Shown one piece after another: positions 24,178-55,799 of a DNA stretch of 64,000 nucleotides. Positions within the stretch are counted from its first letter, which is position 1, and each line of letters begins with the position of its first letter. This stretch comes from Lingula anatina. Its lineage: Eukaryota > Animalia > Brachiopoda. The notes beneath the pieces were generated by a model. It was not told the DNA's origin, made no database searches, and worked only from the letters and a program-made list of their open reading frames with translations. The stretch covers positions 20,022,587 through 20,086,586 of the forward strand of contig CM120648.1 in NCBI GenBank assembly GCA_051362555.1. The letters run 5' to 3'. The position numbers were made by a program, and so were the translations under genes.

Positions 24178-25122
24178 GATCTACTGTCGGAATGGAAGCC
24201 ATGTTAGGGCAGTCTAGACGAGGTGTAAATCCAAGATCAGGACAGGTGACAGTACAGACACAACCTCCATTAGCTGAACAGGAAACAAATACAACATCAG
24301 CTACACATCCTCGTGTTTTCTTAGAGAAGGCAGAATGTGTGCGTTCCTTCAGTGCTAAACTGGAAGATGATGATAGAGAAATAACCAACATAACTGGGTT
24401 AGCCATAGATAAGGAACACATGTTTGTTGTGGATAGAGGAAACAACAGAACAAAAGTATTCACACATGGAGGACAATTTAAGTTTAACATTAAAGTAAAC
24501 AGTCCATATGATGTGGCTGTGTCACAGACTGGTCACCTGTATATAACATCATGGGGTGACAGATGTGTCCAAGTGTACTCCACCAGAGGTCAGCAGGTGA
24601 CAACCATGGGTCAGGGTCTACTGGAGTATCCACAGGGTATTACACTGAACAGACAAGGTCATGTGATGGTTTGTGACAGAGTAAAGAAGTCCATCTTCAC
24701 ATTCCATGCAGACAGTGGACAGCTCCTGAACACTATTCCACTCAGTATGTGTAGATACCCAGAGTACATCACAGTGAACAGTGTGAATGATAACATTGTG
24801 ATATCAGACTTGGACTGTGTACATGTGCTGTCACCTACTGGTGATCATCTGTACAAGTATGACGGCAGCAGAGAAGGCAGTGAACTGAGGTTACCACGTG
24901 GAGTGTGCACAGACAGCTATGGTTACATCTTCATTACTGACAGGGGTAACCACAGGATAGTGGCACTGAGTCCACAGGGACAGTTTATCAGATACATTGT
25001 CACTAAGGATGATGGGTTGTGGTCTCCCACTGCAGTAGTCATCAACCCTGCTGCTGGTCAACTGGTGGTGGGAGAGGGTTACGGCAATGTTAAGACATTC
25101 CAGTACATTGACCTGAAACAAG
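24178..25122 (+). CDS. NHL-repeat beta-propeller exon (TRIM2/TRIM3/TRIM71-like C-terminal domain), phase 1-1
   Basis: ORF 24192-25130 has about six NHL blades (ITGLAID..MFVVDRGNNR, PYDVAVS, PQGITLN, PEYITVN, PRGVCTDSYGYIFITDRGNHRI, PTAVVIN); acceptor TTACAG|G at 24177/8, donor AAG|GTGAGT at 25122/3. Confidence 0.88.
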
Positions 25123-25471
25123 GTGAGTAACATGTATTAACTGTGGATAGATATGATTATTATGTAAAATATTTGAAAGTTTATTAGTCTTACAATGTTT
25201 TTATCCATGATTATGTTTGCCTTTATTTCAATAAAAAAACTTTTTAAGCATATTTAAATTCAGTGAGCACACAGCTGTGCTTTAGTAAAAATGTATGTAC
25301 AGTGGAGACATTTTCTATAGTTAATACTTTACTGTTACTGACAAATTTCCATGAACCCATTATAGTGATTAGGATTTTGAATAATGATGAAGAACTCTTT
25401 TTTAATGGAATTTATAGTATGCTTTATTTGTATTTTTATTAAGTCACAAGAAAAACATCTTACATTGTTTA

Positions 25472-28400
25472 CGGTAAAGTGCCATGAATTTCGAACGGCT
25501 CTTGAATTTCGAACGATCTTAAAATCGGCCGTCTGGAGTTTTTTCTGGACCATGAATTTCGGCCAGTAAGCAATTTTGCGCGATCTTGATTTCGTGAATT
25601 TCATACACCTTAAAATCGGCCACCGGGCTATTCTCGCGCTTATAAAGATCTAACAGTCGGCAATGTTGCCCAAGCGTACCTTTACCTGAGTACTACGTGT
25701 GCGGCCCAAGGTGCAAGATAACGATCGGTACAGTTAGTTTAGGACGCTAAACAACATCGTCATATCCATTCATTCAGATAACAGGAGAATCTATTAAGAG
25801 TTGTACTGTCGGGCTGTTGTTTCTTTACCGCAGTATTCGGTGTGAGATAGCGATCGGTAGTTTTGCTGAGGCGCACAATAGCATTGTTAACAGTAGAGAC
25901 TTCAGTAACAGAACAAAAGAGCAATATAAAGAGCTGCAATAAAGACTACCATTATTGCTTTCTTGTCTCGCTCAGATCGTTCACGATCTCCCGTTGCCAA
26001 TCTTCCGCTAATGAAGTCCCTTGAAATGTACAAATGAAATGAAAAATATTTTTAAAAATTATAAATTCCAATGGGGAGGGATGGAGGGTTAAAAACAATC
26101 GAGAACGATCTCCGGCTGACGATCTTCAGCAAACGAAAGCCACTGAACGAGTATGAGCTTTCTCGTTTCACTCGGATTGCGACGCTGACTGTTCGAAAAT
26201 TGCGTTCTCGTCTCGCTCTTTGGCTTACGAAGTCTCTTTAACAAATATGAAAATTGCCTCCTGGTCTCTCTCGGCTTGCGAACGATCTCTCGCTGAAAAT
26301 TTGAAATTTTCCTTTTTGTCAATCAGCTTTGTCAGTTGTCGTGCGTATGAAAGTCCGGTAGGTGTCCCCTTTCACAAATTGGCCTGTAGTTTGCTTCGTG
26401 TTTTGTACCGCATGCAGGTCACTCTTGTCTCTGCTGCATACGGCGTGGAATGTGTATCTTAAAGTTCATAGAAACATTTTATTGTGTTTTGTAAGCTTTT
26501 GGAAGTAGTTTCGTCGTGACTGAATATCAGCGTACACTACAAAGTACCGGTAGTACCATTCATCTGTGACGCATCATAAAAGCTAGGTACGTCAAATTAC
26601 TCTAAGAAAATTTCTTACAACGTCCACGGCTGTCCCGACAAGCCAAGACGTCATTAAAAAAAAGTCGCAAGCCGTCTAGCCGTCTTTGAATATATAGGCC
26701 GTCCGGTGATGTCAGTGGCCGTCCAAATGACGGCTGGACGGTTCGCTGGGAAAAGCCTTGCTCATAAGGGTATATTTATTTAACTACGGGCTTACTGACA
26801 TCACCCAGCTTACTTGCGGGTGCATGTCTCCCAAAATTATATTAAAGGATAAAATTGTAATATATCGAAGTTTAATTGTTTGTAAATTTTGTAAAAATTG
26901 CCCATGCCACCCCGTTAGTTTGGAGGGTTAAGCTGGATCAAGTCCGTGTCAAAATTCTTTGAAACTTTGCAGGAAAAATCAATCTTCCTTTGTTTCTCTG
27001 GCTCCTTGTTTAGCCCGATGATCATATTTATCTACATGTAGTGCCCCCAGGTCTGCTGGAGCAGCTCTTTGAAAATAACACACAGGTAGATTTTTATCTA
27101 AGATAAATATCGCGTTCGATACATTCAAGACAAAAGCTACCTGTGAGCTGAAGGGCACTTTATCCTCTAATTAAGAGGTAAAGCAAGTTCCAGCTAGATG
27201 GACGATTAAGATCGGACTTCAGATGGTAACTAGTATTGTTTACCTCAGTTCTGTGAAAGCAAACGAGAAGGGTGTCAGAACAATGGTGCGTATATAAATT
27301 ATACAGAGAATTTGTACATTCAGGTGACGTTTACTTATAATCGAAGGGGATTTTCGATAATATTCCTTGAAAAGTACACTAGATTTATAGAGAATAATAT
27401 CATGGTTGGCCAAAAAATTATATACGCACAGTGTATCCGTGCGTATGCCTGGTTACGCCCTTGTCGCAAACCAGCAAACCATATCCTGCTGACTACATGA
27501 AAATTGCCTTCTAGCACGGACAAAAAGTCCAAGCTTCTATGCTTGCTCGAATCGCTGACGATCTCTTGCTGACGAATATAGTAACGAAGTCCCTTGAACT
27601 AGTGTGGAAATTGGCTTATTGTCGCGCTCAAATCTTCGATTTAACGAATATAAAAACTGCCTTTTCGGTTTACTCTAGATTACCTATCTCTCGCGTTTGT
27701 TTGAAGATGGTTTCAATGACAAAACGTACACGTTTTTCAAATGCGTACATTGACGCAACTATGCGCCAGGAAATCAGTTGCTGCTTCTGGTTAAGATTGG
27801 GTTGCCTGAGCGAAAAAAAAAAACGGCCCTGCATCCCCCCCCCAAATCTAGTATATTTGATCGCAGACAACAATCAGCGGTCATCTTGGTCGCAGCGCAC
27901 GACGGAGAGAGACCGTAATACACAGTTCGGCTGCCGTGGCGAAGGCTACCTGTGCGCCGCACATACCGATCTGCGGTCGTAGTGGCCTCCCCGCACGGAG
28001 GAGAGGCCGTAGTGCCGAGGCTTCTGCAGGGAAGGCTACGTATGCGTCGGAGACACTGACCCGCGAACGGCGAGATGAGGACGCATTCGCGCGTTAAGCT
28101 CCGCCCGACTTTAACGGTAAAAGCAACGAACCTGGTCGCGGAAGACACTTATCGCAGATGAAGGCTACCTGCACGTGCGCCACAGACACTGATCGGCTGT
28201 CGTCTCGGTTTCAGTGCACAGAAAGGAGCAACGGTAACACTAAGCTTTCATAGTAAAGGTTATCTGGCCGTGGCAGACGCTAATCATCGGCCGTCTCTCC
28301 CTCCGTCCACTCCCGTTCTGAGCGCCAGGATCGTTTTTGAAAAACGACACTAGTTTCTGGCTGCCAGAATCGCTTTTGAAAAACGACACTACTGATAACG

Positions 28401-28719
28401 ATGCTGTTTGCGGCCCTAGACAACAGTACCGCTCTATCTATGGGCCATACACAGTGATCGGGTGAAAGTACGTGTATACCTTTGGTCGCAATTAACGACA
28501 CTCACACATCATACATTATGGTAACTCTAAATAGATCGTCGGGAGAAGATAACAGAAGGCCTAGCGACGAACAGACAACTTCCGGTCAAAATTGACAGAA
28601 TTCCATGAAATTCGAACTTTTGGAAGTTCTGAGCCCCTCCATTTCATGAATTTCGGCCAGAACGATCTTTTCCCAAATTTAATTATTTTCTACTGTTCGA
28701 AATTCATGGCACATTACCG
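25472..28719. mobile_element. 3.2-kb non-autonomous TA-target DNA transposon (Tc1/mariner/pogo-like)
   Basis: TIR CGGTAAAGTGCCATGAATTTCGAAC / GTTCGAAATTCATGGCACATTACCG (1 mismatch), flanked by TA on both sides; subterminal CATGAATTTCG repeats at both ends; no transposase ORF seen. Confidence 0.85.
26895..27252 (-). repeat. Interspersed repeat, inverted copy of the family at 32531-32757 and 33281-33595 (fragment also at ~37085-37160)
   Basis: TAGTGCCCCCAGGTCTGCTGGAGC..CTCTTTGAAAATAAC..ACAGGTAGA is the reverse complement of 32704-32757; AAGCTGGATCAAGTCCGTG is the reverse complement of 33538-33556. Confidence 0.75.
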
Positions 28720-29204
28720 TAATCCCTGAACTTCTTGTCCATATGTCAGTGAAGAACAACTTAAATCTCACAACAGAACAGTCCAATTCTTCATATTCTT
28801 CATCTTGTAGCTGTTCATGAAAGCTTAGATATACCTAACTTCTCAAATGTACTTTGTCAAGTTTCTTGATGTCTTACCACTTCTAGATTCAAAGACATTT
28901 CATCACCAGTTTGTTGTTAACACACACAAATAAATTAAATGTTGAAGTACTTTGGATGATACCTTATTTTCCTGACTTTGTGGATTGTTGATTGCAAATA
29001 AAACTAGCAGACGACCATTTTTCATGAAATGGAACTACTTTTCACAGGAAGTAGTGTATTCATACACAACAGTGACCTTGGGTTTGGAATACAAAAAATA
29101 GTACATGCATTCATACTGTCACAGCATGCAAATTATAATGAAATATACAAAACTAAACACATTTTTATGTAACACAAAAAGTTAAATGCATTTTTATTTA
29201 TTTA

Positions 29205-29235
<31 letters not shown>

Positions 29236-38028: not shown

Positions 38029-41000
38029 ATGTACAGACACAGATGTGTCTGTACATATAGCCGTCATCTGCGTCTGTCGTCGCCGTCGCCATTGCCGTTG
38101 CCGTTGCAAACACGATAAGTGGAATACTGTTTTACCTTTTGGCTTGAAAGTTACAGAACTGATGAATATTCATAATACGCCGGTCAAGTTCGAAAATCAG
38201 CATGATCGGGCCATTTTTAGGGAAGTTATGCTTTTTTTTCACTTTTTTCAGCATATATGCAACACCGTAAACACGATAAGTGGAATACTGTTTTACCTTT
38301 TGGCTTGAAAGTTACAGAACTGATGAATATTCATAATACGCCGGTCAAGTTCGAAAATCAGCATGATCGGGCCATTTTTAGGGAAGTTATGCTTTTTTTT
38401 TCACTTTTTTCAGCATATATGCAACACCGTAAACACGATAAGTGGAATACTGTTTTACCTTTTGGCTTGAAACTTACAGAACTGATGAATATTCATAATA
38501 CGCCGGTCAAGTTCGAAAATCAGCATGATCAGGCCATTTTTAGGGAAGTTATGCTTTTTTAGTACCACCAGCGTGTACGCTGGCGGTACTCATGGTTTTA
38601 GTCCCGACCCGTCTCGTCCGGCTCCGCCGGCTCCGTTGGCTCCGCCGGCTCCGCCGGCTCCGTAAGCTCCGCCGGCTCCGCGTACTGGCGCCGGATACAA
38701 GTCACCGTTACCGCTTCTCCTCCTAGACCGCAAGGACCCCTGTCCCCATCTCTTGGATTTCGGTCACATATAACCTCAACTTGAACCCCCAGATTTTTTT
38801 GTCTCAGTCGGTGCATTAACCTGGGCGTGACGCTTGTTGAAATGCACCCTTGTCAAAATTTTTGAAAATTCAATGCCAATTATTTACCCTACGGAAGGAA
38901 TTATGGGAAAAATTTCTACAGACGGCTTTCCAAAAGTCATATGTGTAGATTTCAAATATGCCCTTGGATTTGACCTTTGACCTTTATTTCAAGGTCAAAC
39001 AGGCCAAAATTTTCAAAAAAATGAAATTTTTTACAAAAAAAATATTATTTGCGCTGTTATTCAGACACTACACAGACTTAACCAATAATATTATTGGAAA
39101 GTCTTACCCTTTGGGTCATCTTTCATCTCCGTGAATTTGGGGTCAATCGGTGCATTTTCACGGGAGAAGCGGCCATAAGATACCGAAACTGAAAACTGTC
39201 TCTAATTCGGGAACCGTTAATGCTAGCGACCCGTTCTTTTTTGCATTTTGTAGAGCATGTAAAGCCCAACATTGCATGTGGTCTCCGTTTTTTTGTATTT
39301 CATACGGTTTTCGTGTTATGCTGTATTAAAAAGTACATTGTGGTGACACATTATTGTAACTCAGAATTGTAACATTATATCTCCAAAACTGGCAGAGATA
39401 GGTCAATAGTTACTATTAAAGTTGAATAGGAAGTCACTTACTGGCAATTTAACAGTGACCATAAAATTGACCTTTGACCTACTTTTCACCATGAATTGAA
39501 CTTTGCAAATTTTCGTTCCCTTTTATCACCAAAACTGGCAGAGATAGGTTCATAGTTACTATTGAACTTGAATAGGAAGTCATATACTGGCAATTTACTG
39601 TGACCTTAAATTTGACCTTTGACCTATTTTTGAACTGAACTTTGCAAATTTTTGTTCCCTTTTATCTCCAAAACTGGCAAAGATACGCCCATAGTTACTA
39701 TTGAATTTGAATAGAAAGTCAGAGGCAATTTACTGTGACCTTTAAATTGACCTTTGACCTACTTTTCATCATGAACTGAACTTTGCAAATTTTCATTCCC
39801 TTTTATCTCCAAAACTGGCAGAGGTCAATAGTTACTATTGAACTTAAGTAGTAAGTCATATACTTGCAATTTACTGTGACCTTAAAATTGACCTTTGACC
39901 ATCTTTTTACTATGAACTGAACTTTGCAAATTTTCTTTCTCCTTTATCTCTAAAACTGACAGAGATAGGTCCATAGTTACTATTGAACTTGAATAGGAAG
40001 TAATACACTAGCAATCTGTGACCTTGAAATTGACCTTTGACCTACTTTTTATGATGAACTGCTTTTTGCATGTTTTCAGGCCTTTAAATCTGCAAAATTG
40101 GCAAAGAAATGCCCATGGTTGCTATTGAACTTGAATAGAAATTCATAAACTATGATATTGAAATTGACCTTTAACCTACTTTTTCACCATGAACTGAGCT
40201 TTGCATATTTTCTTGCCTCTCATATCTTTAAAACTAGCAGAGATGTGCCCCTTGTTGCCCCTAGGTTTTCTCTTTTGTCAGCATATATGCACCATTAACA
40301 ACACTTTTCAAGGAAAACCAATAGGCCTTTTGTCTAGAGAATACAGGAGTGATCAAGGGTAGGAAAATGCAAGTCAATTCGAAAATCTGCTTGATTGTAC
40401 CATTTTTAGTTATATTTTTTTGCATATTTTGAGAACTCTTATTGATTGCATCTTATAGAGCTTGTCAAGCACAAGACTGGTGATGGTGTCCCTTTTTGGA
40501 AGGGGGGGGGGGTCCATACGAATGCCCTTACTCCAGCTGGTGGTACAATATCCGGAGGCGGTATCGCCTCTCTGATCCTCTAGTTTTTCACTTTTTTCAG
40601 CATATATGCAACACCGTAAACACGATAAGTGGAATACTGATTTACCTTTTGGCTTGAAACTTACAGAACTGATGAATATTCATAATACGCCGGTCAATTC
40701 GAAAATCAGCATGATCGGGCCATTTTTAGGGAAGTTATGCTTTTTTTTCACTTTTTTCAGCATATATGCAACACCGTAAACACAATAAGTGGAAAACGGT
40801 TTTACCTTTTGGTTAGACCCATTTCAGAAAAGTGCTGTCTTGTTTACATTTTGGCATTTTCAAGATGTGACTTTGAAGTTCCATGGTCCTGAAGACCTTT
40901 GCTAGTCACATTTTCTGAATATCCATGATACTAATATTTTATGATTAAAAATTGATGGTCATTATGCTGTTAAACATTATGTAATATTGCATCAAAATTT

Positions 41001-44000
41001 GAAGAAACCCCTATTTTGGGCACTGCTCCCATGATGACCATTTAAGGAAAATCATGTCACTCACTGTTCTCAAACTTACAGGAAAGAAACATGGGACTAA
41101 AATATAGCTTCAGTAGGCAATGCAGTCTGTTTGGTAATGTTTTCTGGCAGTTAAACAGTTTTTTTGTGAAAATTTAATTTTTCACATATTGGGATTTTCA
41201 GGGTGTGATTTTGAAGTTCCATGAGCCTGCAGACCTTTGCTAGTCACGTTTTCTGAATGTTCATGTGACTAATATTCTATTATTAAAAATTGATGGTCAT
41301 TATGCTGTTAAACATGTAATATTGCATCAAAATTTGACGAAACCCCTATTTTGGGCACTGCTCCCATGATGACCATTTAAGGAAAATCATGTCACTTACT
41401 GTTGTCAAACTTACAGGAAAGAAACATGGGACTAAAATACAGCTTCAGTAGGCAATGCAGTCTGTTTGGTAAATTTTTCTAGCAATTAAACAGTTGTTTG
41501 TGAAAATTTAATTTTTCACATATTGGCATTTCCAAGGTGTGACTTCAATACGCCGGTCAAGTTCGAAAATCAGCATGATCGGGTCATTTTTAGGGAAGTT
41601 ATGCTTTTTTTCCACTTTTTTCAGCATTTATGCAACCCTGATAATATGAAAAGTGAAAAACCGCTTTATTTTTTGGCTTAAAACTTACACAACTGATGAA
41701 TATTTATAATATGCAGGTCAAGCTGAAAATCAGCATGATCGGGCCAATTTTATGGAAGTTATGCTGTTTTTTTTTCAATTTTTTTCAGCATAAATGCAAC
41801 ACCGATAACAAGATAATCGAAAAAATAATTTTACTTTTTGGCTTATAAGTTACTGAAATGATGAATGTTCATAATACGCAGGTTAAGTTCGAAAATCAGC
41901 CTGATCGGGCCAATTTAATGGAAGTTATTTAATGGCAGTTTTTTCGCAATTTCAGCATATGTGCAACATCGATAACACATTTCAAGGAAAATCAATTGGC
42001 CAATTATCTTGAAATTCACAGGGGTGATCAGATTTACTAAAATACAGATGAGGTTCGAAAATTAGCTTGATCAGTTCAGTTTTGGTGAAATTGTGCCTTT
42101 TTTTGTAAATAAGTCTTTTTTCCTTGGATTTAATTCTTAGGCATGTTAACAATCTCATTTGTGAACTAATTAGTAATGTAAAGGTGTTCTTTTGACATTT
42201 TCTGCATTTTAACAATATTGCTAGTTGATTATATAAAAATGATGGTAAACCTGTTATTGTGCATTGTGTAATAAAGTGTCAAAAATGGAAATAAACTCAT
42301 ATCTTTACAGTTTGTCAGATTCAATCATTCACCATGTTCAGAATCTCAGAATGGAACAAATTAGACATTTAAAATTGTTCTATTGATATTTTTCCTATGT
42401 CAACAACTTTCTTAGTTGATCATTTAAAAACAACAGTAAATTGATTATTTTGATATATGTAAAAAAAGTGTTGAAAGTGGAAAGAAATTCATTTCAGTAC
42501 AGTTATCTCTTGTGTACATTTTGGCATTTTGAAGTTGTGACTCTGAACTTCCATGGCCCTGAAGACCTTTCCATATCAAATTTTCTGAATATCCATGATA
42601 CTTTTATTTTATTATTAAAAATTGATAGTCATTATGCTGTTAAGCATTATGTAATATTGCATCATAATTGAAGACAACCCCATTTTAGACAATGCCTCCA
42701 TAGTGACCATTAAAGGAAAACCAAGTCACTTACTCTTCTCAAACTTACAGAAATGTAGCATAGCACTAAATTATAGCTTCAGTTGAAAAACCTGCTATAT
42801 CAGTTAACTTTCTTGGAAATTATATAGTTTTTTGTTACAATTAAAATTTTCACATATGGACATTTTCAAGGTGTGACTTAGTCTTTGATCTTCCATTGGC
42901 TTGAATACCATTGCTAGTCACATCTTTTGAATAGCTATGATACATTTACTTTATTATTAAAAATTGATGGCCATTGTGCTGTTAAGCATTATGTTAAATT
43001 GCATAAAAGATGAAAAAAAAAACCTTTTTTGGACATCGCTGCTAGGATGACCATTAAGGAAAAACCATTTTACTTATGATATTCTAACTTACTGAAAAGT
43101 TTCATAGGACTGAAGAGTAGCTTGTGTTGGAAATCAGTGTGATTGTTTTCTGTTTTGGAAGCAATGCAGCTCTATAGAGTGCTATATGGGGCTACTGTTT
43201 ATGAATGGTGGTAATTGTCCCTTGGGATAATCACTAGCTAAATTCAGAGCTATAAAATTACTTGCCTAATTGATTTTCAAGTGCCCATTAAATAAGATTA
43301 CATAAAGTACACGTTAAGATTTCCCATTCAAGTCCTATAGGTTAAGCTCTCTCAACTGTGTCACATAATAAGGAATTGGTGATAATTATGCAGGTAAATG
43401 TTGTTTAATATTGCAAATAAGTTTACAAAAGAAAAAAAAAATTGTGTAATGCCAACATTAATGCTATAGATGAATAACAGTGCCTTATTATCCTCAAACG
43501 CATTGGGATTATTCATATCATGTTAATACAGCAAGATTAAAAGTTTGAATAGCAGCTATATTGGATTTTTTTTGTGTGTTTTCTTTTTAATTTTTTTTTC
43601 TAAACACTGGCATTTTCAACTCCCATCCACCTGAAGCTCTTCAGATTTTCTGTATTTCCACATAAGCAGTTGCATAGGTTTTTATGTCTTTAAACATTAT
43701 GTAATATTATTTTATGTACTGTCAACATTTTTCAAATATTGGGATTTTCATTATGTGAATTTGAACTCTCATGGTCCAGAAACTGTAATCTTATTGCAGG
43801 GGTGGATTGAGGCCGTCTTCTGGGTCTTTCAGATGACAGTCAGATTTTAAAGTTTACAATGACTGGTATCATTTTTTTTTGTTGGAAGACCATCAAAAGT
43901 GGAGGATGGATCAACAAAGATACTTTGGAATACTGTCAAAAAATATCTCTGGATCTGCTTCTGTTATTGACCATTTTACCTGTTGTGCATGATTAAAAAT

Positions 44001-44124
44001 CAGTGTTAACTGACCGTGTTATTATAAGCATTATTTATTATTGCATCAAAATTGACAAAATGACCCATTTTGCATCTTTATTTTCTGTTTTTTGTCTGTA
44101 CATTTGACAGCTTTGCTGCCTTGT
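38029..44124 (+). mobile_element. Helentron-type non-autonomous element (HINE family A) with ~160-bp core tandem repeats
   Basis: T-run, then 5' subTIR/IR palindrome ATGTACAGACA-CAGATG-TGTCTGTACAT, a GCCGT-type microsatellite, and core repeats AAACACGATAAGTGG...GTTCGAAAATCAGCATGATCGGGCC; 3' subTIR TGTCTGTACAT 44093-44103, hairpin GACAGC-TTT-GCTGCC, end CTTGT. Confidence 0.78.
38561..40583 (+). mobile_element. Complete HINE (family B) nested in a T-run of HINE A
   Basis: 5' subTIR GTACCACCAGC 38562-38572, IR GCTGGCGGTAC 38579-38589, (CCGGCTCCG)n microsatellite, ~145-bp TGACCTT-rich tandem repeats 39380-40240, 3' subTIR GCTGGTGGTAC 40536-40546, hairpin GAGGCG-GTAT-CGCCTC, end CTAG then T; host repeat resumes in register. 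Confidence 0.88.
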
Positions 44125-44137
44125 CTTAATCTGTCAG

Positions 44138-46034
44138 GATCTGGTATAGCGGTGAGCACTGCTGCAGCCCCCACCCCCGTGCTGCAGCTGACCTCACCCC
44201 AGGGGATGATGGCTCCCGCCCCAGGGGTTGGATTAACCCCTGGGCTGATAACCGTACCCGGAGTTATCCCCACAGCTGTTATACCTGGTATGTGTGGGTA
44301 GAGCTTAGGGAGGGTGGGGGAGGTGGCATTGGTTGGGGGGAAGGTAAACAGCTAAGTAAGCCAAAAAGTTAATTGACAAAATTACTGTAACTTTTAGAGG
44401 CTTTATATTTTTCTTATCTATTTTATAAGCTTTCAAATAAATTGTTGAGTTAATTAAAGAAGGTATATGAATGAACCACGTATTTGTAGCATTTGTCAAA
44501 AGCATGAAATATTTTTCTCTGTTAGAATGGTTGGAATATACATGTACTATGTCAGTTGTATAAGGATTGGAAGGGGAAAGGTTGCAGGGAGGGGGGAAAG
44601 AAGGGACACATTAGGAAAATAGTGGACCATATACCAAATAATTTTTGATTTATGTTTATCAAAATAACAGCACATTTCAAATTCACATTTGCACTCTTCT
44701 CTTTTTCTTCTCACTGTCCACCAGGTGGTGCTGGAGCAGTGATGGCCCAACAGATGGTGCCAGTTAAAGATGCTCCAGTATTCCACAGAAAGTCAGATCC
44801 CACCACTGCCACCGCTGTCCCGACGCCACCTGGGGCAGGTGGAGATGGTCAAGTGTCCATGGCAAACACAAAAGAGAAAACCCCAATGTGCTTAATCAAT
44901 GAGTTAGCCCGCTACAATAAGGTACCTGAATTGTCATGTAATTTAGTAGAGAGTCTTTGGAAAACTTTTCATCTTTTAAAAATCACACTGAGGTTTGTTC
45001 TTATGTTAAAAAAAAAGATTTAATTTTGATTGTAATTTTTTAGATATTAAATCAGGTACATATTTTCTTTAATTGAATACTTGCATGTTTTCTAATATTG
45101 ATATTTGTTTTTAAATCCAGGAAAAGAAAAAAAATTAAAAGTACTTATGGGTTTTGTTTCTTGTTTTCCTTAGATACTCCACCAGTACACATTAACTGAC
45201 AAACAAGGCCCAGCTCACAAGAAAACTTTCTTCGTGAAGCTCAAGTTAGGTGACGAAGAGTACGCAGCAAATGGCGTCAGCATCAAAAAGGCGCAGCATG
45301 CAGCAGCTGACATTGCGTTAGAGAAGACACAGTACAAACATCCTCCGCCTAAACCAGCAAAGTATGTGGACGGTACAGGAGTCTGTGGTATGCTGAAAAA
45401 ACTTTGTTACAGTTTTGATGATATTTTTATTTTGATTAACTAGCTTAGAAAAAGAATCATTGTATTAGAGGGTGGGGCTTACGTGAGCCTCTTATTATTT
45501 TTCATCATTGACATCTTGATATGAAGATGAATTATGAGTATGATGACAGAAACAATTTTCATTTCTTTTTCCAAATATTTTTCCTTTAAACTTTTCTTTA
45601 TTGTTACTAGTTATTCTATAGCAAACTGTCCAAAGATGAAATATAAAATAACTGACTTCACTTGACTTATTTTTCTTTTTAATCAGTATGTCAGATTATT
45701 ATGTTATTCTGCCACCTTTTCAAAGGACATTTTCATGATATCATTCTGTTATTCTTTCCCCAAGATCCTTCTTCCTCCCGTACCATCACTCCCACAGTGG
45801 AACTGAATGCTCTGGCCATGAAACGAGGAGAACCTGCTGTGTACCGCCCCATTGAGCCTCCCAGACCTGCGTGCTATGGGCCACCTAACTTGGGCTTCAG
45901 GGGCATGTACAACCAAAGGTAAATAACATGTACAACCAAAGGAAGATAACATTTACAACCAAAGGTAAATAACATGTATAACCAAGGGTAAATAACATGT
46001 ACAACCAAAGGTAAATAACAACCTAAAGAAAATT

Positions 46035-46067
<33 letters not shown>

Positions 46068-46575
46068 TGCTTTTCAGTCTGAAGTGGCAACCCTTTTTCT
46101 CATTTTAAGGGTATTTCTTTTCATTATTTTCTTACAACCAAAATGCCTGGTAGGCATGTGAATACACATACAGGCTTGCTTTTGTGCTTCATTTGAAATC
46201 CATTTGCAAAGATCATTTTCTAAAGCAGAAATCCATGCCAGATTATTTCATACTATTGAGTGAGCTGTAGTCAAGCAGTGGCATGGGTGAGAAAATATCG
46301 CAGTGGAAGACTGCCAAATTGATAGACAAATTGACAACCGAGCCAGAAACCAGTTAACATTCAGACTTTCTATTCCAGATATCATTATCCAAAAGCACAG
46401 AAAGTGTTCTACGTGTCCCTGAAGGTGGGCAACCGAGAATTCATGGGTGAGGGCAACACGCGCCAGGCTGCTCGCCATTTTGCCGCTTCAAAGGCGCTGA
46501 AAACGCTGGCCGCTCTCCCTATGCCAAACCAAGACAAAACACCACTCCAAGTGAGCGATGGAGTGGGTGACGGTG
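44138..46575 (+). CDS. stau: Staufen-type exons encoding N-terminal low-complexity region, dsRBD1 and split dsRBD2 (exons 44138-44287, 44725-44921, 45174-45387, 45765-45918, 46379-46575)
   Basis: Spliced translation ...MANTKEKTPMCLINELARYNK|ILHQYTLTDKQGPAHKKTFFVKLKLG..SIKKAQHAAA..|..ITPTVELNALAMKRGEPAVY..FRGMYNQR|YHYPKAQKVFYVSLKVGNREFMGEGNTRQAARHFAASKAL matches Staufen signature motifs; all introns GT-AG and frame open. The first exon is less certain. Confidence 0.93.
45904..46018 (+). repeat. 23-bp tandem repeat x5 spanning a splice donor
   Basis: CATGTACAACCAAAG|GTAAATAA repeated five times with small variants. Confidence 0.92.
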
Positions 46576-47038
46576 GTAAGTATCCTGGAGATTTGCAGCA
46601 CATGCAGTAGGTTACCAGACATGGGGGAAAAACTTTTAAGATGCTGAAGGTCTAGAGGACATACGCAAGAGGAGATCTGAAGGTTCTCACAACATTCTTC
46701 GGAGTTCAAACTAAGTAATTTATTTCTGTTAGACTATGTTTACATGTAAGTGATTATTATATGTTGTATTTTCACATAAACCTAGCTAGTCATAAAGACT
46801 TGGGATATTAAAAAATCTTGCAGGTCCTGTAGCATTTCAATTTGATCATCTCCAGTGGGACAGGCAGTTTCCCCATGTCTGGATAACACTGGCAAAGTCA
46901 CATGAAGTTACTTTCTCTTATACTATGCTGTCTTTGATGTAAGGCATAAATGTTAGATTTTATTGATTGAAAATAAGAAATGTTATATTTTAGAACTTGC
47001 GGGCAAACATATCTATATACATATGCATGCACACCCTT

Positions 47039-47541
47039 GTCTCTGTCACAACTAACACAATGTTTCTGTCACAACTAACACAATGTTTCTGTCACAGCTA
47101 ACACAATGTTTCTGTCACAGCTAACACAATGTTTCTGTCACAGCTAACACAATGTTTCTGTCACAACTAACACAATGTTTCTGTCACAGCTAACAATGTT
47201 TCTGTCACAGCTAACACAATGTCTCTGTCACAACTAACACAATGTCTCTGTCACAACTAACACAATGTTTCTGTCACAACTAACACAATGTTTCTGTCAC
47301 AGCTAACACAATGTTTCTGTCACAGCTAACACCATGTCTCTGTCACAGCTAACACAATGTTTCTGTCACAGCTAACACCATGTTTCTGTCACAGCTAACA
47401 TAATGTTTCTGTCACAGCTAACATAATGTTTCTGACACAGCTAACACCATGTCTCTGTCACAGCTAACACAATGTTTCTGTCACAACTAACACAATGTTT
47501 CTGTCACAGCTAACACTATGTTTCTGTCACAACTAACACAA
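47039..47541. repeat. Minisatellite, 23-bp unit, ~22 copies
   Basis: GT(T/C)TCTGTCACA(A/G)CTAACACAAT repeated. Confidence 0.96.
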
Positions 47542-47551
47542 TTTTCTTTTT

Positions 47552-50500
47552 ATGTACAGACACAGATGTGTCTGTACATATTGCCATCACCTGCGTCTGT
47601 CGTCGCCGATGGCGATGCCGATGCCGATGGCGATGCCGATGCAGGCGCCGTGCACTTTCCTTGTAAACACGATAAGTGGAGGGCAGTTTTACTTTTTGGC
47701 TTTATATTTACAGAGCTGATGAATATTCATAAAACGCAGGTCAAGTTCGAAAATCAGCATGATCGGGCCATTATTGTAGAAGTTATGCTGTTTTTTCACT
47801 TTTCAGCATATATTTCACATTTCCTCAGATTCAATTCTTAGGCATGTTAACAGTCTCATTATTAAACTAATAAGATACGAAAAAGTGTTTGTTTGGCATT
47901 TCCTGCATCTTTACAACATTGTTAGTTGATTTTGTAAAAATGATGGTTAACTTGTTATTGTGTATTGTGTAATAAAGTGTTAAAAATGGAAATAAACTCA
48001 TATCATTGCAGTTTGTCAGCTTCAATCATTCACTATGTTCAGAATCTCATAATGGAAGAAATTGGACATTTAACACTGCTCTGTTGATATATTTCCCATC
48101 TCATCAATTTTCTTAGTTGATCATGTAAAAATGGCAGTAAACGGTTAATTTTGTTTTATGTTAAAAATTGTTAAAAATGGAAAAAAAAAAAACATTTCAG
48201 ATCAGTGCTGTCTTGTTTACATTTTGGCATTTTCAAGTTGTGACTTTCAAGTTCCATGGGCCTGAAGACCTTTGCTAGTCAAATTTTTATGTACAGACAC
48301 AGATGTGTCTGTACATCTTGCCATCACCTGTATCTGTCGTCGCCGTCGCCGATGCCGGCGCCGTGCACTTTCCTTGTAAACACGATAAGTGGAGGGCAGT
48401 TTTACTTTTTGGCTTTATATTTACAGAGCTGATGAATATTCATAATACGCAGGTCAAGTTTGAAAATCAGCATTATCGGGCCATTATTGTAGAAGTTAAG
48501 TTGTTTTTTCACTTTTCAGCATATATGCAACCCTGTAAACACATTTTAAGGAAAACCGTTAAGCCTGTTGTCATGAAACTCACAGGAGTAATCAATCTTA
48601 CTTGAATGCAGGTCAAGTTCGAAAATTGGCATGATCGGGCCACTACTGTGTCTGTGCATAAAAATTTGACTAGCAAAGGTCTTCAGGCCCATGGAACTTG
48701 AAAGTCACAACTTGAAAATGCCAAAATGTAAACAAGACAGCACTGATCTGAAATGTTTTTTTTTTCACTTTTCAGCATATATGCAACCCTGTAAACACAT
48801 TTTAAGGAAAACCGTTAAGCCTGTTGTCATGAAACTCACAGGAGTAATCAATCTTACTTAAATGCAGGTCAAGTTCAAAAATTGGCATGATCGGGCCACT
48901 ATTTTAGTAGTTATGCTGTTTTTTCACTTTTCAGCATATATGCAACACTGTAAACACAACATAAGAAAAACAGATTGGCCAATTGTCATTAAACTCACAG
49001 GAGTGGTCAATCTTACTAAAACGCAGGTTAAGTTCGAAAATCAGGATAATCGGGCCATTTTTTTAGAAGTTATGCTGTTTTTTCACATTTCCTCAGATTC
49101 AATTCTTAGGCAGGTTAACAGTCTCATTATTTAACTAATAAGACACGTAAAAGTGTTTGGTTGACATTTCCTGCATCTTTACAACATTATTAGTTGATTA
49201 TGTAAAAATGATGGTAAACTTGTTATCGTGTATTGTGTAATAAAGTTTCAAAAATGGAAATAAACTCATATCATTGCAGTTTGTCAGCTTCAATCATTCA
49301 CTATGTTCAGAATCTCAGAATGGAGGAAATTGGACATTCCGTCACTGTCACTGGCGCCGGCGCCGTTCACTTTCATTGTAAACACGATAAGTGGAAGGCA
49401 GTTTTACTTTTTGGCTGTATATTTACAGAGCTGATGAATATTCATAAAATGCAGGTCAAGTTCGAAAATCAGCATGACCGGGCCATTATTGTAAAAGTTA
49501 TGCTGTTTTTTCACTTTTCAGCATATATGCAACACTGTAAACACAACATAAGAAAAACAGATTGGCCAATTGTCATTAAATTCACAGGAGTGGTCATTCC
49601 TGCTAAAACGCAGGTTGAGTCAAAAATCAGCATAATAGGGCCATTATTTTAGAAGTTATGCTGTCTTTTCACATTTCCTCAGATTTAATTCTTAGGCATG
49701 TTAACAGTTTCATATTTTAATTAATAAGATACGAAAAAGTGTTTGTTTGGCATTTCTTGCATCTTTACAACATTATTAGTTGATTATGTAAAAACGATGG
49801 TAAACTTGTTATCGTGTATTGTGTAATAAAGTTTCAAAAATGGAAATAAACTCATATCATTGCAGTTTGTCAGATTCAATCATTCACTATGTTCGGAATC
49901 TCAGAATGGAAGAAATTGGACATTTAACACTGCTCTATTGATATTTTTCCCATCTCATCAATTTTCTTAGTTGATCATATAAAAATTGCAGTAAACCATT
50001 AATTTTGTTTTATGTTAAAAATTGTTAAAAATGGAAAAGAAAACATTTCAGAACAGTGCTATCTTGTTTTAATATAGATTTTTAAATATTTAAGACATTG
50101 CAGAAATCTTGAGTTTGGCAGTTTCTCCATGAAACACTGCTTTTTGGTCATAGCATCCTATAGTAAACTACCCCAAACATATACCCAAAACCCCCAAATC
50201 AAATGTCAAGTTTGACCTTGACCCTCATTTTCAAGGTCATTTGGCTATTTCATGGAGAAATATTGAAGTGGGCTAAAAGTGATGTTTAGTTGACCCCCCC
50301 CCCCCCAATTCGCACATGCTCTTTCAGAATATAGGGTCAAATTTAACCCATGACCTTCACATGACCTTGTAAGAGCATTTTCACACCTATTTTGCAGGGG
50401 AATCCTCCGCCACTGGCTTTAGCCAGTTGCAGTCTAGTTAAAATTTGATGTTGAATTTGCAGTTTAACATAATGTACTTTTGCATCATAATTGACAGTAG

Positions 50501-50556
50501 CCTATTTTGTTATTTCCTGCTTTTTGTCTGTACATTTGACAGCTTTGCTGCCTTGT
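47552..50556 (+). mobile_element. Composite HINE family A array (5' ends at 47552 and 48289, 3' end at 50525-50556), with the 3' fragment of another HINE at ~50150-50440
   Basis: Same ATGTACAGACACAGATGTGTCTGTACAT start, same core repeats, same TGTCTGTACAT-hairpin-CTTGT end; separate ACTGGC-TTTA-GCCAGT...CTAGTT end at 50412-50439. Confidence 0.78.
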
Positions 50557-50731
50557 TTTAAAATTCTGGTGTTAATATGCAATACCATTTGCCCTCCACC
50601 TCTTTAGATATTCTTTCGCTTCTTCTCTGCTATCGCCTCACAATTAAATGTCATCCGCAAACATCATCATTCACGGGACATTTTCCATGAGTCATTTCGT
50701 CAATCTGAAGCAATATCATTCGTATTACCAG

Positions 50732-53265
50732 GTGAATTTAATGAACGGCTTCGCCGATTGTGTGAAAGTGGTAAGATTCCAGTATACCGACAGCGAGTAG
50801 CTATTGTAGGACCTTACGGTGTGGGAAAGACTCATCTCGCCAAGCGCCTCATCCATGAGGAATATATCAAAGCAGAAGATGCAAATACAACTGGCGTGAA
50901 TATATACCGTCATAGGTGTGTTGTCCATAAAGCTGGCCGATCCTGTTGGATAAGAGGAAAAGGTAAGCAGAATATAGGAAAACATTTGGCACATATGGAA
51001 TTTGTTTATAAAGAATACAAAGAACAGAAGATAAGACATTTTCAGTTTTACCGCATAACCCACAATAAGTGTATGTGTGGGTGTCGAAATGTGTCCTTCC
51101 CTATCTTAGTATGGTAGACGAGGGGCTGAGTGAAAAAGTACTTAAATAAGTGGTGCCTTTGTATTGTTATCAATCAATTGACATACATTACACTTAACAA
51201 TCTACTACTACAGCCCATTGATTATTTTTAACTGGGTACAAACACGATAATTTCATTCTCTGTAAAAACACCATGCTTTATTTTACTAAATGTTGAATTG
51301 AATTTTTTAATGGTGTAGCCTGATACGTACACTCAGAAAAGGTACATTTAGATACAACCCTTGATCTACCTGTATGATCCTTCCAACTATTCTCAGATGA
51401 TCCAAAAGACCAGTTTGCACAAAACATGGCAATTGGAGTACAGAATTCAGATACGTTTTGTGAGCCGGACTTAACAGTATTGGACCAAACGCCACTAGAG
51501 GAATCCCTACCAGATTCAGAAGAGAATATTAATAACATGCTGACAAATAGAGGTATTGTACATGATTGTCTCGAATAGTTCATCTTGGTGCAATTTAAGC
51601 AGATATTTGTAGTTATTCTTCTTTTTTGCCAAGAGATTCCACCTTCTGTGTGTTTTTCGTTGGCCATTCCACATATATGTTCCTTAAAGACGTTTTTGTT
51701 TACTTCAAGGTTGAGTCTTTTTCTGTTAGAATGGTGTTTGATATTATTCTTTTCTTTATTCTACAGCCGCTCCCCCTGATGACAGTGAATCACCTGCCTC
51801 TCCTGACAAAGCAGCAGGTAAGTAGTTCACATGTAGTAAAACAAAATTCTCGTGTATTGCTCAGAGATGTTCGAGAGTTTTTCTTAGCTTGTCGATTAGC
51901 TATGTGAGTTTCTATCTTCTTATTTTCATCAAACTGGGACTTAGAACTCACACGGGCATGAAGCCCAGTGGTAATCAAATTCTCTAAATGTCCATGTTTT
52001 TAATAGAAAATAATTAAAATTTCATGGTATACAGTTGCCCATTATGTTATATTGCATCAAAAACCTACTTTGTGCACTATCACCATAACGTTATAAAAAG
52101 AAAACTGTTACCTATTTTATATTTACAAAAAAAATGATTCTTAGGATTGACAAACAGCTCAAATTAGAAAACCAGCTCTTTTGAATTATCCTTTTTATCG
52201 AATTATGCATTTTTTGTGAAATTTTTATTTATCTCATTCTGGTGTGAGCTTGAACTCTTATGGGCCTGAAGCCTTATGCTTTTACTTACATCGTTATATA
52301 CTATTGTGCATAATTAAATTTTCAGGTTGACTGTGCAGTTAAGCATTGTATTACATTAGAACTGACAGCCTCCTATTTTGTGCATTATTATTTTCTGCTT
52401 TTTTAAAATTGTGACTTAGATATTTCATGGGCCTGAATACCTTTGCTAGTCACATTTGGGTGACAAGCCTCTAATCTTCCATTGGGTAACTACTAGCAAA
52501 ATTCAGAACTATAAGGTCACTTGCCTAAATTAAGTTTCAGGTGGCAATAAAATGAGATTATATAAAACACACATGTTGAGATTCCCTGTAAACTCCCATA
52601 GGTTAAGTTTTCTGCCAGATAACAGTGTCCATAATAGGGAAGCAGTGATAATTATGCAGATAAATGTTTAATTTTGCAAATAAGTTTTCAAAAAATTATT
52701 TTGTATAATGCCAACATTAATGCTTGTTTGAAAAGCAGCTTTACTGGAATGTTTTGTTTTTAATTTTTTCAAACACTGAGGGTTTCAACTCAATTTTTAA
52801 CTCCCCTCCACCAGAAGCTCTGCACATTTTCTGTTTTCCCACATAAGCAGTTGTATTGGTATTTTATATTTCAGCATTATGTAACATTATATTATTCTAT
52901 GCACTGCTTTCATATGTCAAATATTGTGATTTTCATTATGTGAATTTAAACTCTCGTGGTCCTGAAACTGTAATCTTATCATAGGGGCAGATTGAGATCG
53001 TCCTCAAGGTTTTCAGGAAGACGGTCAGATTTTAAAGTTTACATTGACGGGTATCTATTTTTTTTTTGTTGGAAGACCATCTAAAATGGAGGGTGGATTA
53101 ACAAAGATATTTTAAAATACTGTCAGAAAATACATTTGGATCCGCTCCTGTTATTGACCATGTTACCTGTTGTGCATGACTTAAATTCAGTGTCGATTGA
53201 CCGTGCTATTACAAGTATTATTTATTATTGCATCAAAATGAGAAATTAACCTTTTTTTTGCATCT

Positions 53266-53296
<31 letters not shown>

Positions 53297-55281
53297 TTTT
53301 GTCTGTAGACTCGCCCTTCAAGAAATCCATGCCTTGAAGAAATCGATGAAAACTGGAAGTGTGTGTTTTTTGCACTGTTTTTCCTGTCATGCCCATCGTT
53401 AACACTGTGTTGTCAAGTAAAAGGAAGCGTCTGATACAAAGTATCAAACGCAGCATTGACGTGCTTGCTTGCGATGCGTTCAGTACACTTTGTTTACACT
53501 GACAAGTCGAGGTCAGGAATGCACAATGTTTTTCTATGTAATTATGCAGTTTCAATTTTGATTAGTGAATTTTCTCTTATCTGCATGGTCATTTTCCGAA
53601 CATTTTCATAAGCCACGAAATATTTCTCATCGGAAAATCACCCAGCAGCTTTCCAAGTACAAGCGAGTGACGTCATGACGCACTTCCGGTTTTTCGCCAA
53701 GATCTTGAAGGGATTAGCTTTACGGTTTGCTGCACATTTAAAGCATTCTGTCTCAAAATGTACTTGACTGCTTGGATTGAAATTTACAGAACTTATTCTT
53801 CACATGATATCACACATATGTGCTTAATTTGAGAGCTTTAGCTGTTATATATTTTCTACAGTGCCCATTCAAAATTGAAAAAGAGCTATTTTCCGTCGAT
53901 TTCTTGAAGGGCAAGTCTACATTTGACAGATTTGCTGTCTTGTTTTATCTGGGTACAAACACGACAATTTAATTTTCTGTAAAATAAGTCGTCTTTATAT
54001 GACTGAGGATTATTTTTATGTACAGACACAGGCTTGAAGACCCATGCTAGTCACATTTTCTGAAAATCCATGATACTTTTATTTTATTATTAAAAATTCT
54101 TGTTTTCTGTTGGAAGACCATCAAAATGAAGGATGGATCAACATAGATACTTTGTAATACTGTCAGAAAATATCTCTGGGTCTGCTCCTGTTATTGACCA
54201 TGTTACCTGTTGTGCAAGATTAAAATTCAGTGTTGACTGACAGTGCTATTATAAGCATTATTTATAATTGCTTCAAAATTGACAAAATTACCTTTTTTTG
54301 CATCTTTATTTTCTGTTTTTTGTCTGTACATTTGACAGCTTTGCTGCCTTGTTCTTTTTGCCAAGGGATTCCACCTTCTATGTGTTTTTCGTTGGCCATT
54401 ATACCTTATGTGCCTTGAAGACTGGGCACTTGATACCAATTATACTTGATCTTATTAGACGCATTTTCAATGTAATTTATTTATTTTTATACAATATTTA
54501 TACAATATCCCAAAGTTATAGTTAAAAATTTTGTAAAGAAATTCCTTTATCTTAGCCATGTTTTTGTTAACTTTAAGATTGAGTCATTTTCTGCTAGAAT
54601 GGGGTTTGATATTCTTCTTCTCTTTATTCTACAGCCGCTCCCCCTGATGACAGGGAATCACCTGCCTCTCCTGACAGAGCAGCAGGTAAGTAGTGCACAT
54701 GTAGTAAAACAAGATTCCGTCTTTTGCTCAGAATCTGCGAGAGTTGTTCTTAGCTTGTTGATTAAGTATGTGAGTTCCTGCATTCTTATTTTCATCAAAC
54801 TGTATTAATAATGTTACATTAAAATTGACTATACCTTACAATTTAAATTGATTTTAATTAATGTTAAAACATTCAGTGTATCACCCAGTTATGTTTTGAG
54901 CTTACCCACTTGTATTCATCAGAGAGGATACATTTTTAAGAAACTTTTTTTTTTTGCGCAAATTGCTGATAAACCTTCAGAAACAGACGAAAGCTTCTAA
55001 TTTATTTGATAACTGTTTCACAAAGTTAATTGACACTAAATACATTCAAATTTTGTCAATAATTATGATACTTTTTTATGCTAAAAAGTTTTATTTTAAC
55101 CACACTGTTTATTGTACAGTCCTTTTCAAAGGTTAAAGTGGATCTCATACCTCTGGGGAAGAAAACATGAGTTGTATAAGAATGTTGACGATATGTCGAT
55201 GTATGAACAGTCCCTGACAAATGAAATAAATTAGATTGAAAGCATGTCTATAAAGATTAAGGTCTAGTCTCTCTCTCTCTC

Positions 55282-55330
<49 letters not shown>

Positions 55331-55799
55331 TTGAAGAAGGCACATCAGCTGAAAACTCAATTGGGCGCTTGATACCAAATATAATTATTACATGCATTTT
55401 CAATCTAATTTATTTATTTTTATACAATATTTATACAATATACTGTGGGATAAATACGATGATTTGGATAAATATGCACGCATTGTAATACATAACAATA
55501 TGCATTATGCTAAAATCAGTTAGTTTGGACATAGCTTATTGTATTCATGGCAGTGGCAGAAAGGGACCATCTAGATGATATTGACAAGGAGCTATTGGAA
55601 AAAATCAAGAAAATTGCCCGAGGAGAAGATGTGGAGCCAGAGAAACAGGTCACAATTTGGGATTTTGCAGGACAGGATGTCTACTACACCACGCACCAAA
55701 CGTTCCTCTCAGAGCGGATCATCTACTTGTTGGTATTCCGACTTGACCAGGACCTCGATGATAAAATCCGTGTATACAGGGGAGAGAAGACGTTGAAAG
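50732..55799 (+). CDS. Roc (Ras of complex proteins) GTPase domain of a Roco-family protein, partial; exons 50732-50962, 51397-51552, 51767-51817, 54635-54685, 55554-55799, all phase 1-1
   Basis: G1 RVAIVGPYGVGKTHLAKRL, G2-like TTGVNI, G3 IWDFAGQDVYYTTHQTFLS..IYLLVF (Roc signature); each exon has AG/GT borders and the spliced frame is open. G4/G5 and COR are not in the window. Confidence 0.85.
51950..53943 (+). mobile_element. 5'-truncated HINE family A copy
   Basis: 52470-53305 parallels 43210-44100; the 3' end CATTTGACAGATTTGCTGTCTTGT resumes at 53920 after a MITE insertion. Left boundary approximate. Confidence 0.7.
53308..53917. mobile_element. 610-bp MITE, 20-bp TIR, TA TSD
   Basis: GACTCGCCCTTCAAGAAATC / GATTTCTTGAAGGGCAAGTC (1 mismatch); empty site GTCTGTACATTTGACAG is seen at 44094, 50526 and 54322. 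Confidence 0.88.
54018..54352 (+). mobile_element. Short internally deleted HINE family A copy
   Basis: Starts TTTTT-ATGTACAGACACAG; ends TGTCTGTACAT-TT-GACAGCTTTGCTGCC-TTGT. Confidence 0.8.

What the first reader, a model, noticed from the sequence alone, without database searches (positions are those of the whole stretch)
24178..55799. Predicted chimeric gene: NHL propeller - Staufen dsRBD1/2 - Roc GTPase in one open spliced frame
Seen: the NHL exon (24178-25122) is phase 1-1. The Staufen block starts in phase 1 (44138) and ends in phase 1 (46575, GGT G|GTAAGT). The next recognisable exon (50732, TACCAG|GT GAA) is the phase-1 P-loop exon of a Roc domain, giving ...VGDG-GEFNERLRRLCESGKIPVYRQRVAIVGPYGVGKT. 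All eleven exons are on +, GT-AG and stop-free, whereas the transposon genes around them are decayed. Known: invertebrate Roco proteins have variable, exon-shuffled N-terminal domains and are proposed immune sensors; NHL domains (Brat, LIN-41) and dsRBDs can bind RNA. Inference: a Roco GTPase fitted with RNA-binding modules taken from Staufen, possibly a dsRNA-responsive signalling or antiviral protein. I do not know of this architecture, but could not search for it. Caveats: phase-1 compatibility is common by chance, the NHL link spans 19 kb and is weaker than the dsRBD-Roc link, and Drosophila Staufen dsRBD2 does not itself bind RNA.
Basis: partly seen in the sequence, partly recalled or inferred. 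Interest (0 to 1): 0.85.

Follow-up and report, generated by a model that had tools for sequence, protein, structure and literature searches.

The report
Staufen fragment inside NHL-Roc gene intron
A five-exon piece of the staufen RNA-binding gene sits in frame, between rolling-circle-type repeats, inside an intron of a brachiopod propeller-GTPase (NHL-Roc) gene, but RNA reads join these exons only to ordinary staufen exons, so it is likely a skipped copy rather than a working fusion protein.

Summary
The 11 exons, GT-AG ends, phases and an open 863-codon frame are real. The closest named relatives are Lingula anatina proteins. The proposed fusion transcript was not seen. In four RNA runs from three studies, the 246 reads leaving the last Staufen exon (46575) give one consensus, the normal staufen next exon and not the Roc exon. 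The 162 reads entering 44138 give staufen exon 1 as consensus, not the NHL exon. At 10 sites nearly all reads differ from the window (3037 of 3041 observations), so they come from another, full-length staufen. Lingula gene models join this NHL exon straight to this Roc exon, so NHL-Roc is the family's own link. The Staufen block is likely a DNA-level partial duplicate that landed next to HINE repeats. It carries a change at a position invariant in 119 of 119 homologues. A dead HEPN exon lies in the same intron, so the locus seems to swap front modules. Caveat: the RNA animals may lack the insertion, so an expressed fusion in carriers is not excluded (about 15%).

The parts
24178..25122 (+). 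NHL beta-propeller exon, phase 1-1; front module of the Lingula NHL-Roc family
   Evidence: Pfam NHL; 84-90% identical to the NHL part of P0002, P0003, P0004, P0089
31560..32029 (+). Dead HEPN_DZIP3 exon (stops and frameshifts) with a donor-like end at 32029; approximate start
   Evidence: tblastn of P0090 E=1e-22; Pfam HEPN_DZIP3 E=4e-7; three-frame translation
38029..44130 (+). HINE-like repeat A, with nested inserts; its 3' end abuts the Staufen fragment and supplies most of the acceptor's pyrimidine tract
   Evidence: 11-base subterminal inverted repeats at 38029 and 44093, 3' stem-loop; reads of other copies stop matching at 44130. Pairing of these two ends as one element is inferred
44138..44287 (+). 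Staufen fragment exon 1 (staufen residues 21-71 region), phase 1-1
   Evidence: tblastn with P0091; joints
44725..44921 (+). Staufen fragment exon 2, start of dsRBD1
45174..45387 (+). Staufen fragment exon 3, dsRBD1; carries K where 119 of 119 homologues have E (base 45201)
   Evidence: Pfam dsrm
45765..45918 (+). Staufen fragment exon 4, first half of split dsRBD2
46379..46575 (+). Staufen fragment exon 5, second half of dsRBD2, phase-1 donor
   Evidence: Pfam dsrm; loose ends go to the normal staufen exon
47038..47547 (.). 23-base tandem repeat, 22 copies, between the fragment and repeat B
47552..50557 (+). HINE-like repeat B with both ends; ends 175 bases before the Roc P-loop exon
50732..50962 (+). 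Roc exon with G1 P-loop, phase 1-1
   Evidence: Pfam Roc; 96-99% identical to P0003, P0088, P0089; + strand RNA about 54-fold in X4, source copy unknown
51397..51552 (+). Roc insert exon, phase 1-1
   Evidence: same exon in P0003, P0088, P0089
51767..51817 (+). 51-base mini-exon
54635..54685 (+). Duplicate of the mini-exon, in a duplicated block that starts right after the 3' end of HINE-like repeat C (54018-54353)
   Evidence: self-blast; two copies also in P0003
55554..55799 (+). Roc exon with G3 motif; the next exon is not in the window
   Evidence: Pfam Roc; 98.8% to P0003 476-558, no hit for later residues
55970..64000 (-). Young BEL/Pao LTR retroelement in the intron after the G3 exon, cut by the window end
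   Evidence: Pfam Peptidase_A17, DUF5641, integrase zinc finger; LTR identity and two internal stops

Best explanation
The window holds a member of a Lingula NHL-Roc gene family whose NHL-to-Roc intron contains an in-frame, intron-bearing piece of staufen that was likely copied there with the help of flanking HINE repeats and is likely skipped, so the working message would splice NHL straight to Roc. Shown: the exon anatomy, the repeat ends beside the fragment, the absence of the other staufen exons from the window, direct NHL-Roc joins in named gene models, and RNA joints that go only to normal staufen exons. Inferred: the copy was moved as DNA by rolling-circle end bypass or by recombination between HINE copies; it has since drifted; the host gene is a Roc-COR signalling protein, probably of innate immunity, whose front module has been swapped before (dead HEPN exon, then NHL).
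For: Loose ends behind 46575: 6, 57, 104, 79 reads in X2, X4, X5, X7, agreement 1, 1, 1, 0.97; the consensus encodes the residues that follow the block in full-length staufen P0091 and matches the Roc exon start at only 11 of 30 bases. Loose ends before 44135: 4, 31, 50, 77 reads, consensus encodes staufen residues 11-19 and matches the NHL exon end at 4 of 30. X4 holds Roc-exon RNA at about 50-fold depth yet 0 of 57 Roc joints. Neither flanking staufen exon is in the 64 kb. P0003 and P0089 join the NHL exon directly to the Roc exon; the window's NHL+Roc model matches P0003 at 240 of 245 Roc residues. In the named assembly, staufen and the five Roc relatives lie on contigs of different lengths. 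Ten sites where all four runs differ from the window: 7 change the residue, 3 do not, close to the neutral ratio of 3.07; one hits an E found in 119 of 119 homologues. HINE features at both sides fit the anatomy in PMC4067079 (passages seen), which also ties such elements to gene duplications by end bypass.
Against: The RNA animals may simply lack the insertion: X7 differs from X2/X4/X5 about as much as each does from the window, so the species label covers several lineages, and no DNA run was laid. Roc-exon reads may come from paralogues. The NHL-to-Roc joint of this copy was never laid; P0003 and P0089 are gene models whose transcript support I could not see. All 10 splice ends and the frame are intact, the fragment's acceptor is pyrimidine-rich (0.73) and stronger by that count than the Roc acceptor (0.50), and seven RNA-contact motifs are unchanged. 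The excess of residue changes is only suggestive (Fisher p=0.08; 39 variant rows were not shown). Agreement of 0.94 at 44135 in X4 and X7 and 0.97 at 46575 in X7 could hide a few other joints. Only about 6% (X2, X4, X5) and 25% (X7) of each run was read.
Confidence: 0.68

Rival explanations
1. In animals that carry the insertion the Staufen exons are spliced in, at least as a minor or induced form, and give an NHL-dsRBD1/2-Roc(-COR) protein that would act as a dsRNA sensor or as a bait for pathogen proteins that attack Staufen.
For: Open frame, intact splice ends, good acceptor; RNA-contact motifs kept; mouse Stau2 dsRBD1-2 binds RNA (PMC6477676, abstract and section 12). Among 47 longer Roc relatives scanned, extra domains include Bcl-2, Med25, EH, SH2/SH3, TAZ, FN3, Macro and NHL, so the family often takes up such modules. 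PMC8195603 (passages) reports RNA-binding and RNase domains fused into brachiopod immune-type TRADD-N proteins.
Against: No Roc consensus in 246 reads at 46575 (0 of 167 in the three runs with agreement 1; upper bound 1.8%) and at most 4 of 3041 read letters could be the window's own. No dsRBD in 155 Roc relatives and no Roc in 120 Staufen relatives. Change at an invariant dsRBD1 residue. An open frame is expected about half the time without selection.
Confidence: 0.17
2. The fragment's position is an assembly error: a true staufen piece was joined in through near-identical HINE arrays.
For: Both edges lie at or near high-copy repeats; no DNA reads were laid and no genome is held.
Against: The repeat copies here are mostly 70-95% alike, low for a mis-join. 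The fragment has 10 private bases, one at an invariant residue, unlike a working allele.
Confidence: 0.08
3. The block is the normal staufen gene of a more distant Lingula lineage, with exon 1 over 44 kb upstream and the dsRBD3 exon over 17 kb downstream; NHL and Roc exons sit in its long introns.
For: The window, X7 and X2/X4/X5 are about equally far apart; the window ends before this can be excluded.
Against: The block's own introns are 252-460 bases. NHL and Roc exons would be interleaved with staufen on one strand. Staufen and the Roc relatives are on different contigs in the named assembly. K at an invariant E.
Confidence: 0.05

Closest known systems
Lingula anatina NHL-Roc models XP_023930482.1 (P0003), XP_013379953.1 (P0089), XP_013403180.1 (P0002, NHL-Roc-COR)
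   Same: Same NHL exon type and, for P0003 and P0089, the same Roc exons in the same order (240 of 245 and 142 of 146 Roc residues identical)
   Different: They have no Staufen piece between NHL and Roc; their NHL parts are only 86-90% identical to the window's; all are uncharacterised models
Lingula anatina staufen XP_023933375.1 (P0091)
   Same: Residues 22-324, 290 of 303 identical; same four intron positions as the RNA joints
   Different: The window lacks exon 1, dsRBD3, dsRBD4 and the Staufen C-terminal part; 13 residue differences
Lingula anatina HEPN_DZIP3-Roc-COR XP_013395173.1 (P0090)
   Same: Same Roc P-loop exon type (71%); a dead copy of its HEPN exon lies in the window's intron
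   Different: HEPN is the live front module there and is broken here
HINE / DINE-1 non-autonomous Helentrons (PMC4067079, passages seen)
   Same: 11-base subterminal inverted repeats, hairpin at the 5' end, microsatellite, central tandem repeats, short 3' stem-loop, T-rich flanks; linked to gene duplications
   Different: No autonomous partner or empty site was tested; the fragment lies beside the elements, not inside one pair of ends
Exon-shuffled ROCO candidate immune receptors of brown algae (PMC11378527, abstract seen)
   Same: Roc-family genes with variable front exons
   Different: There LRR exons are shuffled; here whole foreign modules (NHL, HEPN, a staufen piece) sit in front of Roc

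Membership tests
Roco (Roc-COR) GTPases | Roc domain with G1 P-loop and G3 motif | tested here: met
   Pfam Roc E=5e-6 and 2e-8 on two exons
Roco (Roc-COR) GTPases | G4/G5 and a COR domain after Roc | tested here: inconclusive
   Not in the window, which ends in an LTR element. P0003 continues to a G4-like stretch but has no COR hit; P0002 and P0090 have COR-A
Roco (Roc-COR) GTPases | GTP binding and hydrolysis | not testable with these tools
   Needs an assay
Staufen | dsRBD1 and split dsRBD2 | tested here: met
Staufen | dsRBD3, dsRBD4 and C-terminal domain in the same gene | tested here: not met
   No such exons in the 64 kb; beyond the window unknown
Expressed chimeric gene NHL-dsRBD-Roc | Reads across 46575/50732 or 25122/44138 | tested here: not met
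   Loose-end consensus at both places is normal staufen in 4 of 4 runs laid; 4 of 9 listed runs were laid on this stretch
Expressed chimeric gene NHL-dsRBD-Roc | RNA animals carry the insertion | not tested
   No DNA run was listed or laid (asked for RNA)
TRIM-NHL | NHL propeller | tested here: met
   Lingula TRIM2/3-like hits at 44-68%
TRIM-NHL | RING and B-box joined to the propeller | tested here: not met
   Only a RING remnant split across two frames at 8081-8270, 16 kb upstream
HINE (non-autonomous Helentron) | Subterminal inverted repeats of 11 or more bases, 3' stem-loop, T-rich flanks, microsatellite or tandem core | tested here: met
   the 3' stem-loop is weak (-2.6 kcal/mol)
HINE (non-autonomous Helentron) | Autonomous Rep/helicase partner with the same ends; empty sites | not testable with these tools
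   No genome held

The most novel reading that the evidence does not exclude
Lingula Roc-COR genes are an animal counterpart of plant NLRs with integrated domains: HINE repeats drop phase-1 pieces of housekeeping genes in front of the Roc exon, and this locus records three rounds (dead HEPN, live NHL, new Staufen dsRBD1-2). In carriers the newest piece is spliced in and gives the first dsRBD-bearing Roco protein, a dsRNA sensor or Staufen bait.
Probability: 0.15. Interest if true: 0.75.

Novelty: new member of a known kind. Interest (0 to 1): 0.33.

Why it matters
As it most likely stands, this is a clear snapshot of how repeat-linked partial duplication feeds new exons to a fast-changing GTPase family: one intron holds a dead front module and a newly arrived in-frame one. 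It also shows that an open spliced frame is not proof of a fusion gene. If carriers do splice the piece in, it would be a Roco protein with dsRNA-binding domains, which I did not find in the proteins or papers searched, and it would make the idea of bait domains in animal Roco proteins directly testable with one RT-PCR.

Tried and rejected
Whole-genome checks were not possible: no genome is held. The run search listed no indexed RNA holder; nine raw RNA runs came by species label only. The first lay (43900-56000, X1, X2, X4, X7) gave depth, but its joint and loose-end tables were filled by repeat reads (340 joints and 1532 loose ends not shown), so it says nothing direct about 46575/50732 or the Roc joints. 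The second lay was therefore put on the repeat-poor 44100-47030; this left the NHL-to-Roc joint and the exon after 55799 untested. X3, X6, X8 and X9 were never laid. Retrocopy origin rejected: the fragment keeps four introns at the spliced positions. Selection test on private changes: 7 to 3 against 10 to 18, p=0.08, not decisive. Protein searches found no dsRBD+Roc protein: 120 of 686 Staufen hits listed, none with Roc; 150 of 1175 Roc hits plus 5 Lingula proteins, none with a dsRBD; Pfam on 47 longer ones of the 150 showed no dsrm, with only the best 5 families shown for the crowded ones. The three homologue searches used the 'longer' setting only. Paper searches: Lingula anatina+Roc+NHL 0 papers; Roco+Lingula 3, one relevant only in passing; Roc-COR+dsRBD+Staufen, none of the 15 listed of 219 held Roc-COR; searches listed no paper on this architecture. 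Earlier findings of the scan: nothing by place, words or sequence. No structure or complex prediction was run, since the open question is splicing.
Full report
Observation. Eleven + strand exons from 24178 to 55799 have AG/GT ends and join into 863 codons without a stop. Pfam finds NHL, two dsrm halves and two Roc halves. The closest named proteins are all from Lingula anatina, so the window is likely from this brachiopod or a close relative. No genome is held for it.

The host gene. The NHL exon's best relatives include Lingula models that carry Roc: P0002 (NHL-Roc-COR), P0003 and P0089. P0003 and P0089 run from the end of the NHL exon directly into the Roc P-loop exon and go on through the same small exons; P0003 even has the doubled mini-exon. 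The window's NHL+Roc model matches P0003 at 240 of 245 Roc residues and 264 of 307 NHL residues. So NHL-Roc is a family trait. These are gene models; I could not see their transcript support. The same NHL exon is joined to a more distant Roc in P0002 and to a non-Roc tail in P0004, and the same Roc exon type follows a HEPN_DZIP3 domain in P0090. A dead HEPN_DZIP3 exon lies at about 31560-32029, inside the window's NHL-Roc intron. I infer that the front module of this locus has been swapped before.

The Staufen block. It covers residues 22-324 of Lingula staufen P0091 with 13 differences and keeps four introns. Exon 1 and everything from dsRBD3 on are absent from the 64 kb. The block starts 7 bases after the point where reads of other repeat copies stop matching (44130). 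That repeat has 11-base subterminal inverted repeats, a 5' hairpin, a microsatellite, tandem cores and a small 3' stem-loop, the anatomy given for HINEs in PMC4067079 (passages seen). A second copy starts at 47552 and ends 175 bases before the Roc exon; a third ends exactly where the duplicated mini-exon block begins. [quoted passage not shown] Which route acted here is not shown.

RNA test. Nine raw RNA runs were listed by species label. laid X1, X2, X4, X7 on 43900-56000: Staufen and Roc exons are covered on the + strand, in X4 at about 75-fold and 49-67-fold, in X7 at about 94-fold and 1-4-fold, but repeats filled the joint table. laid X2, X4, X5, X7 on 44100-47030. The four internal introns appear as joints. 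Behind 46575, 6, 57, 104 and 79 reads run on into one consensus (agreement 1, 1, 1, 0.97) that encodes the next staufen residues and matches the Roc exon at 11 of 30 bases. Before 44135, 4, 31, 50 and 77 reads (agreement 1, 0.94, 0.99, 0.94) give staufen exon 1 and match the NHL end at 4 of 30. At ten sites all four runs differ from the window; 4 of 3041 read letters do not show the other base. So these reads come from a full-length staufen, and the window's copy is not detectably transcribed in these animals.

Limits of that test. X7 differs from X2, X4 and X5 at many sites, so the label covers more than one lineage, and the animals may lack the insertion. No DNA run was laid. Roc reads may come from paralogues. 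About 6% of X2, X4, X5 and 25% of X7 was read. Agreement below 1 in some rows could hide a few other joints.

Is the copy under selection? Of the ten private changes seven alter a residue, near the neutral ratio of 3.07; against 10 to 18 among the other listed sites p=0.08 (39 rows not shown). One change puts K where 119 of 119 homologues have E in dsRBD1. Against this, seven RNA-contact motifs are unchanged, and mouse Stau2 dsRBD1-2 binds RNA through the matching residues (PMC6477676, abstract and section 12). An intact frame is expected in 46-68% of neutral cases with 10-20 changes.

Comparison with what is known. No dsRBD was found in 155 Roc relatives and no Roc in 120 Staufen relatives. 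NHL with Roc occurs in four of the 150 unnamed relatives as well (P0260, P0337, P0343; P0282). The 47 longer relatives scanned carry many extra domains (Bcl-2, Med25, EH, SH2/SH3, TAZ, FN3, Macro, caspase, death, HEPN); their organisms and expression are unknown. Exon shuffling in ROCO genes is reported for brown algae (PMC11378527, abstract), and RNA-binding fusions in brachiopod immune-type proteins in PMC8195603 (passages). The parallel with integrated bait domains of plant NLRs is from my own knowledge and search listings. Searches listed no paper on NHL-Roc or dsRBD-Roc in Lingula; the Lingula genome paper PMC4595640 was seen only as a listing, and its supplements, not read, may list these domain combinations.

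Verdict. Most likely (0.68) a repeat-linked partial duplicate of staufen, skipped, in the intron of an NHL-Roc gene. An expressed fusion in carriers remains possible (0.17), mis-assembly (0.08) and an interleaved normal staufen (0.05) less so. The immune role of the host gene is inferred from family resemblance only. Interest 0.33.

Noticed in passing
window 31560-32029 (+): Dead HEPN_DZIP3 exon in the same NHL-Roc intron, like the front module of P0090; suggests an earlier HEPN-Roc gene at this locus.
   Followed up: partly
window 55970-64000 (-): Young BEL/Pao LTR element, LTR ends 99.5% alike over 201 bases, two internal stops in a 2138-codon frame; it sits 170 bases after the Roc G3 exon.
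   Followed up: partly
window 8081-8270 (+): RING-finger remnant split across two frames, 58-69% like Lingula TRIM-NHL proteins; may mark the TRIM gene that gave the NHL exon.
   Followed up: no
window 24178-25122 against P0002, P0003, P0004, P0089: NHL exons differ by 10-16% between family members while Roc exons of P0003, P0088, P0089 differ by 2-3%: possible diversifying selection on the propeller, as in a receptor.
   Followed up: no
P0227, P0271, P0272, P0291, P0294, P0295, P0298, P0262: Roc-COR relatives carry Bcl-2, Med25, SH3/SH2, EH, TAZ, FN3 or Macro domains in front of Roc, many known from housekeeping proteins; a possible bait-domain pattern across animals.
   Followed up: no
window 50608-50731 (+): A pyrimidine-rich in-frame acceptor lies about 123 bases before the Roc exon; model P0088 includes this stretch as coding.
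   Followed up: no
runs X2, X4, X5 against X7 on window 44138-46575: Two distinct staufen allele sets under one species label, each about 3% from the window; fits a species complex.
   Followed up: no
window 1-342 (+): Open stretch that looks like the end of a tyrosine recombinase (recalled likeness; no Pfam hit).
   Followed up: no
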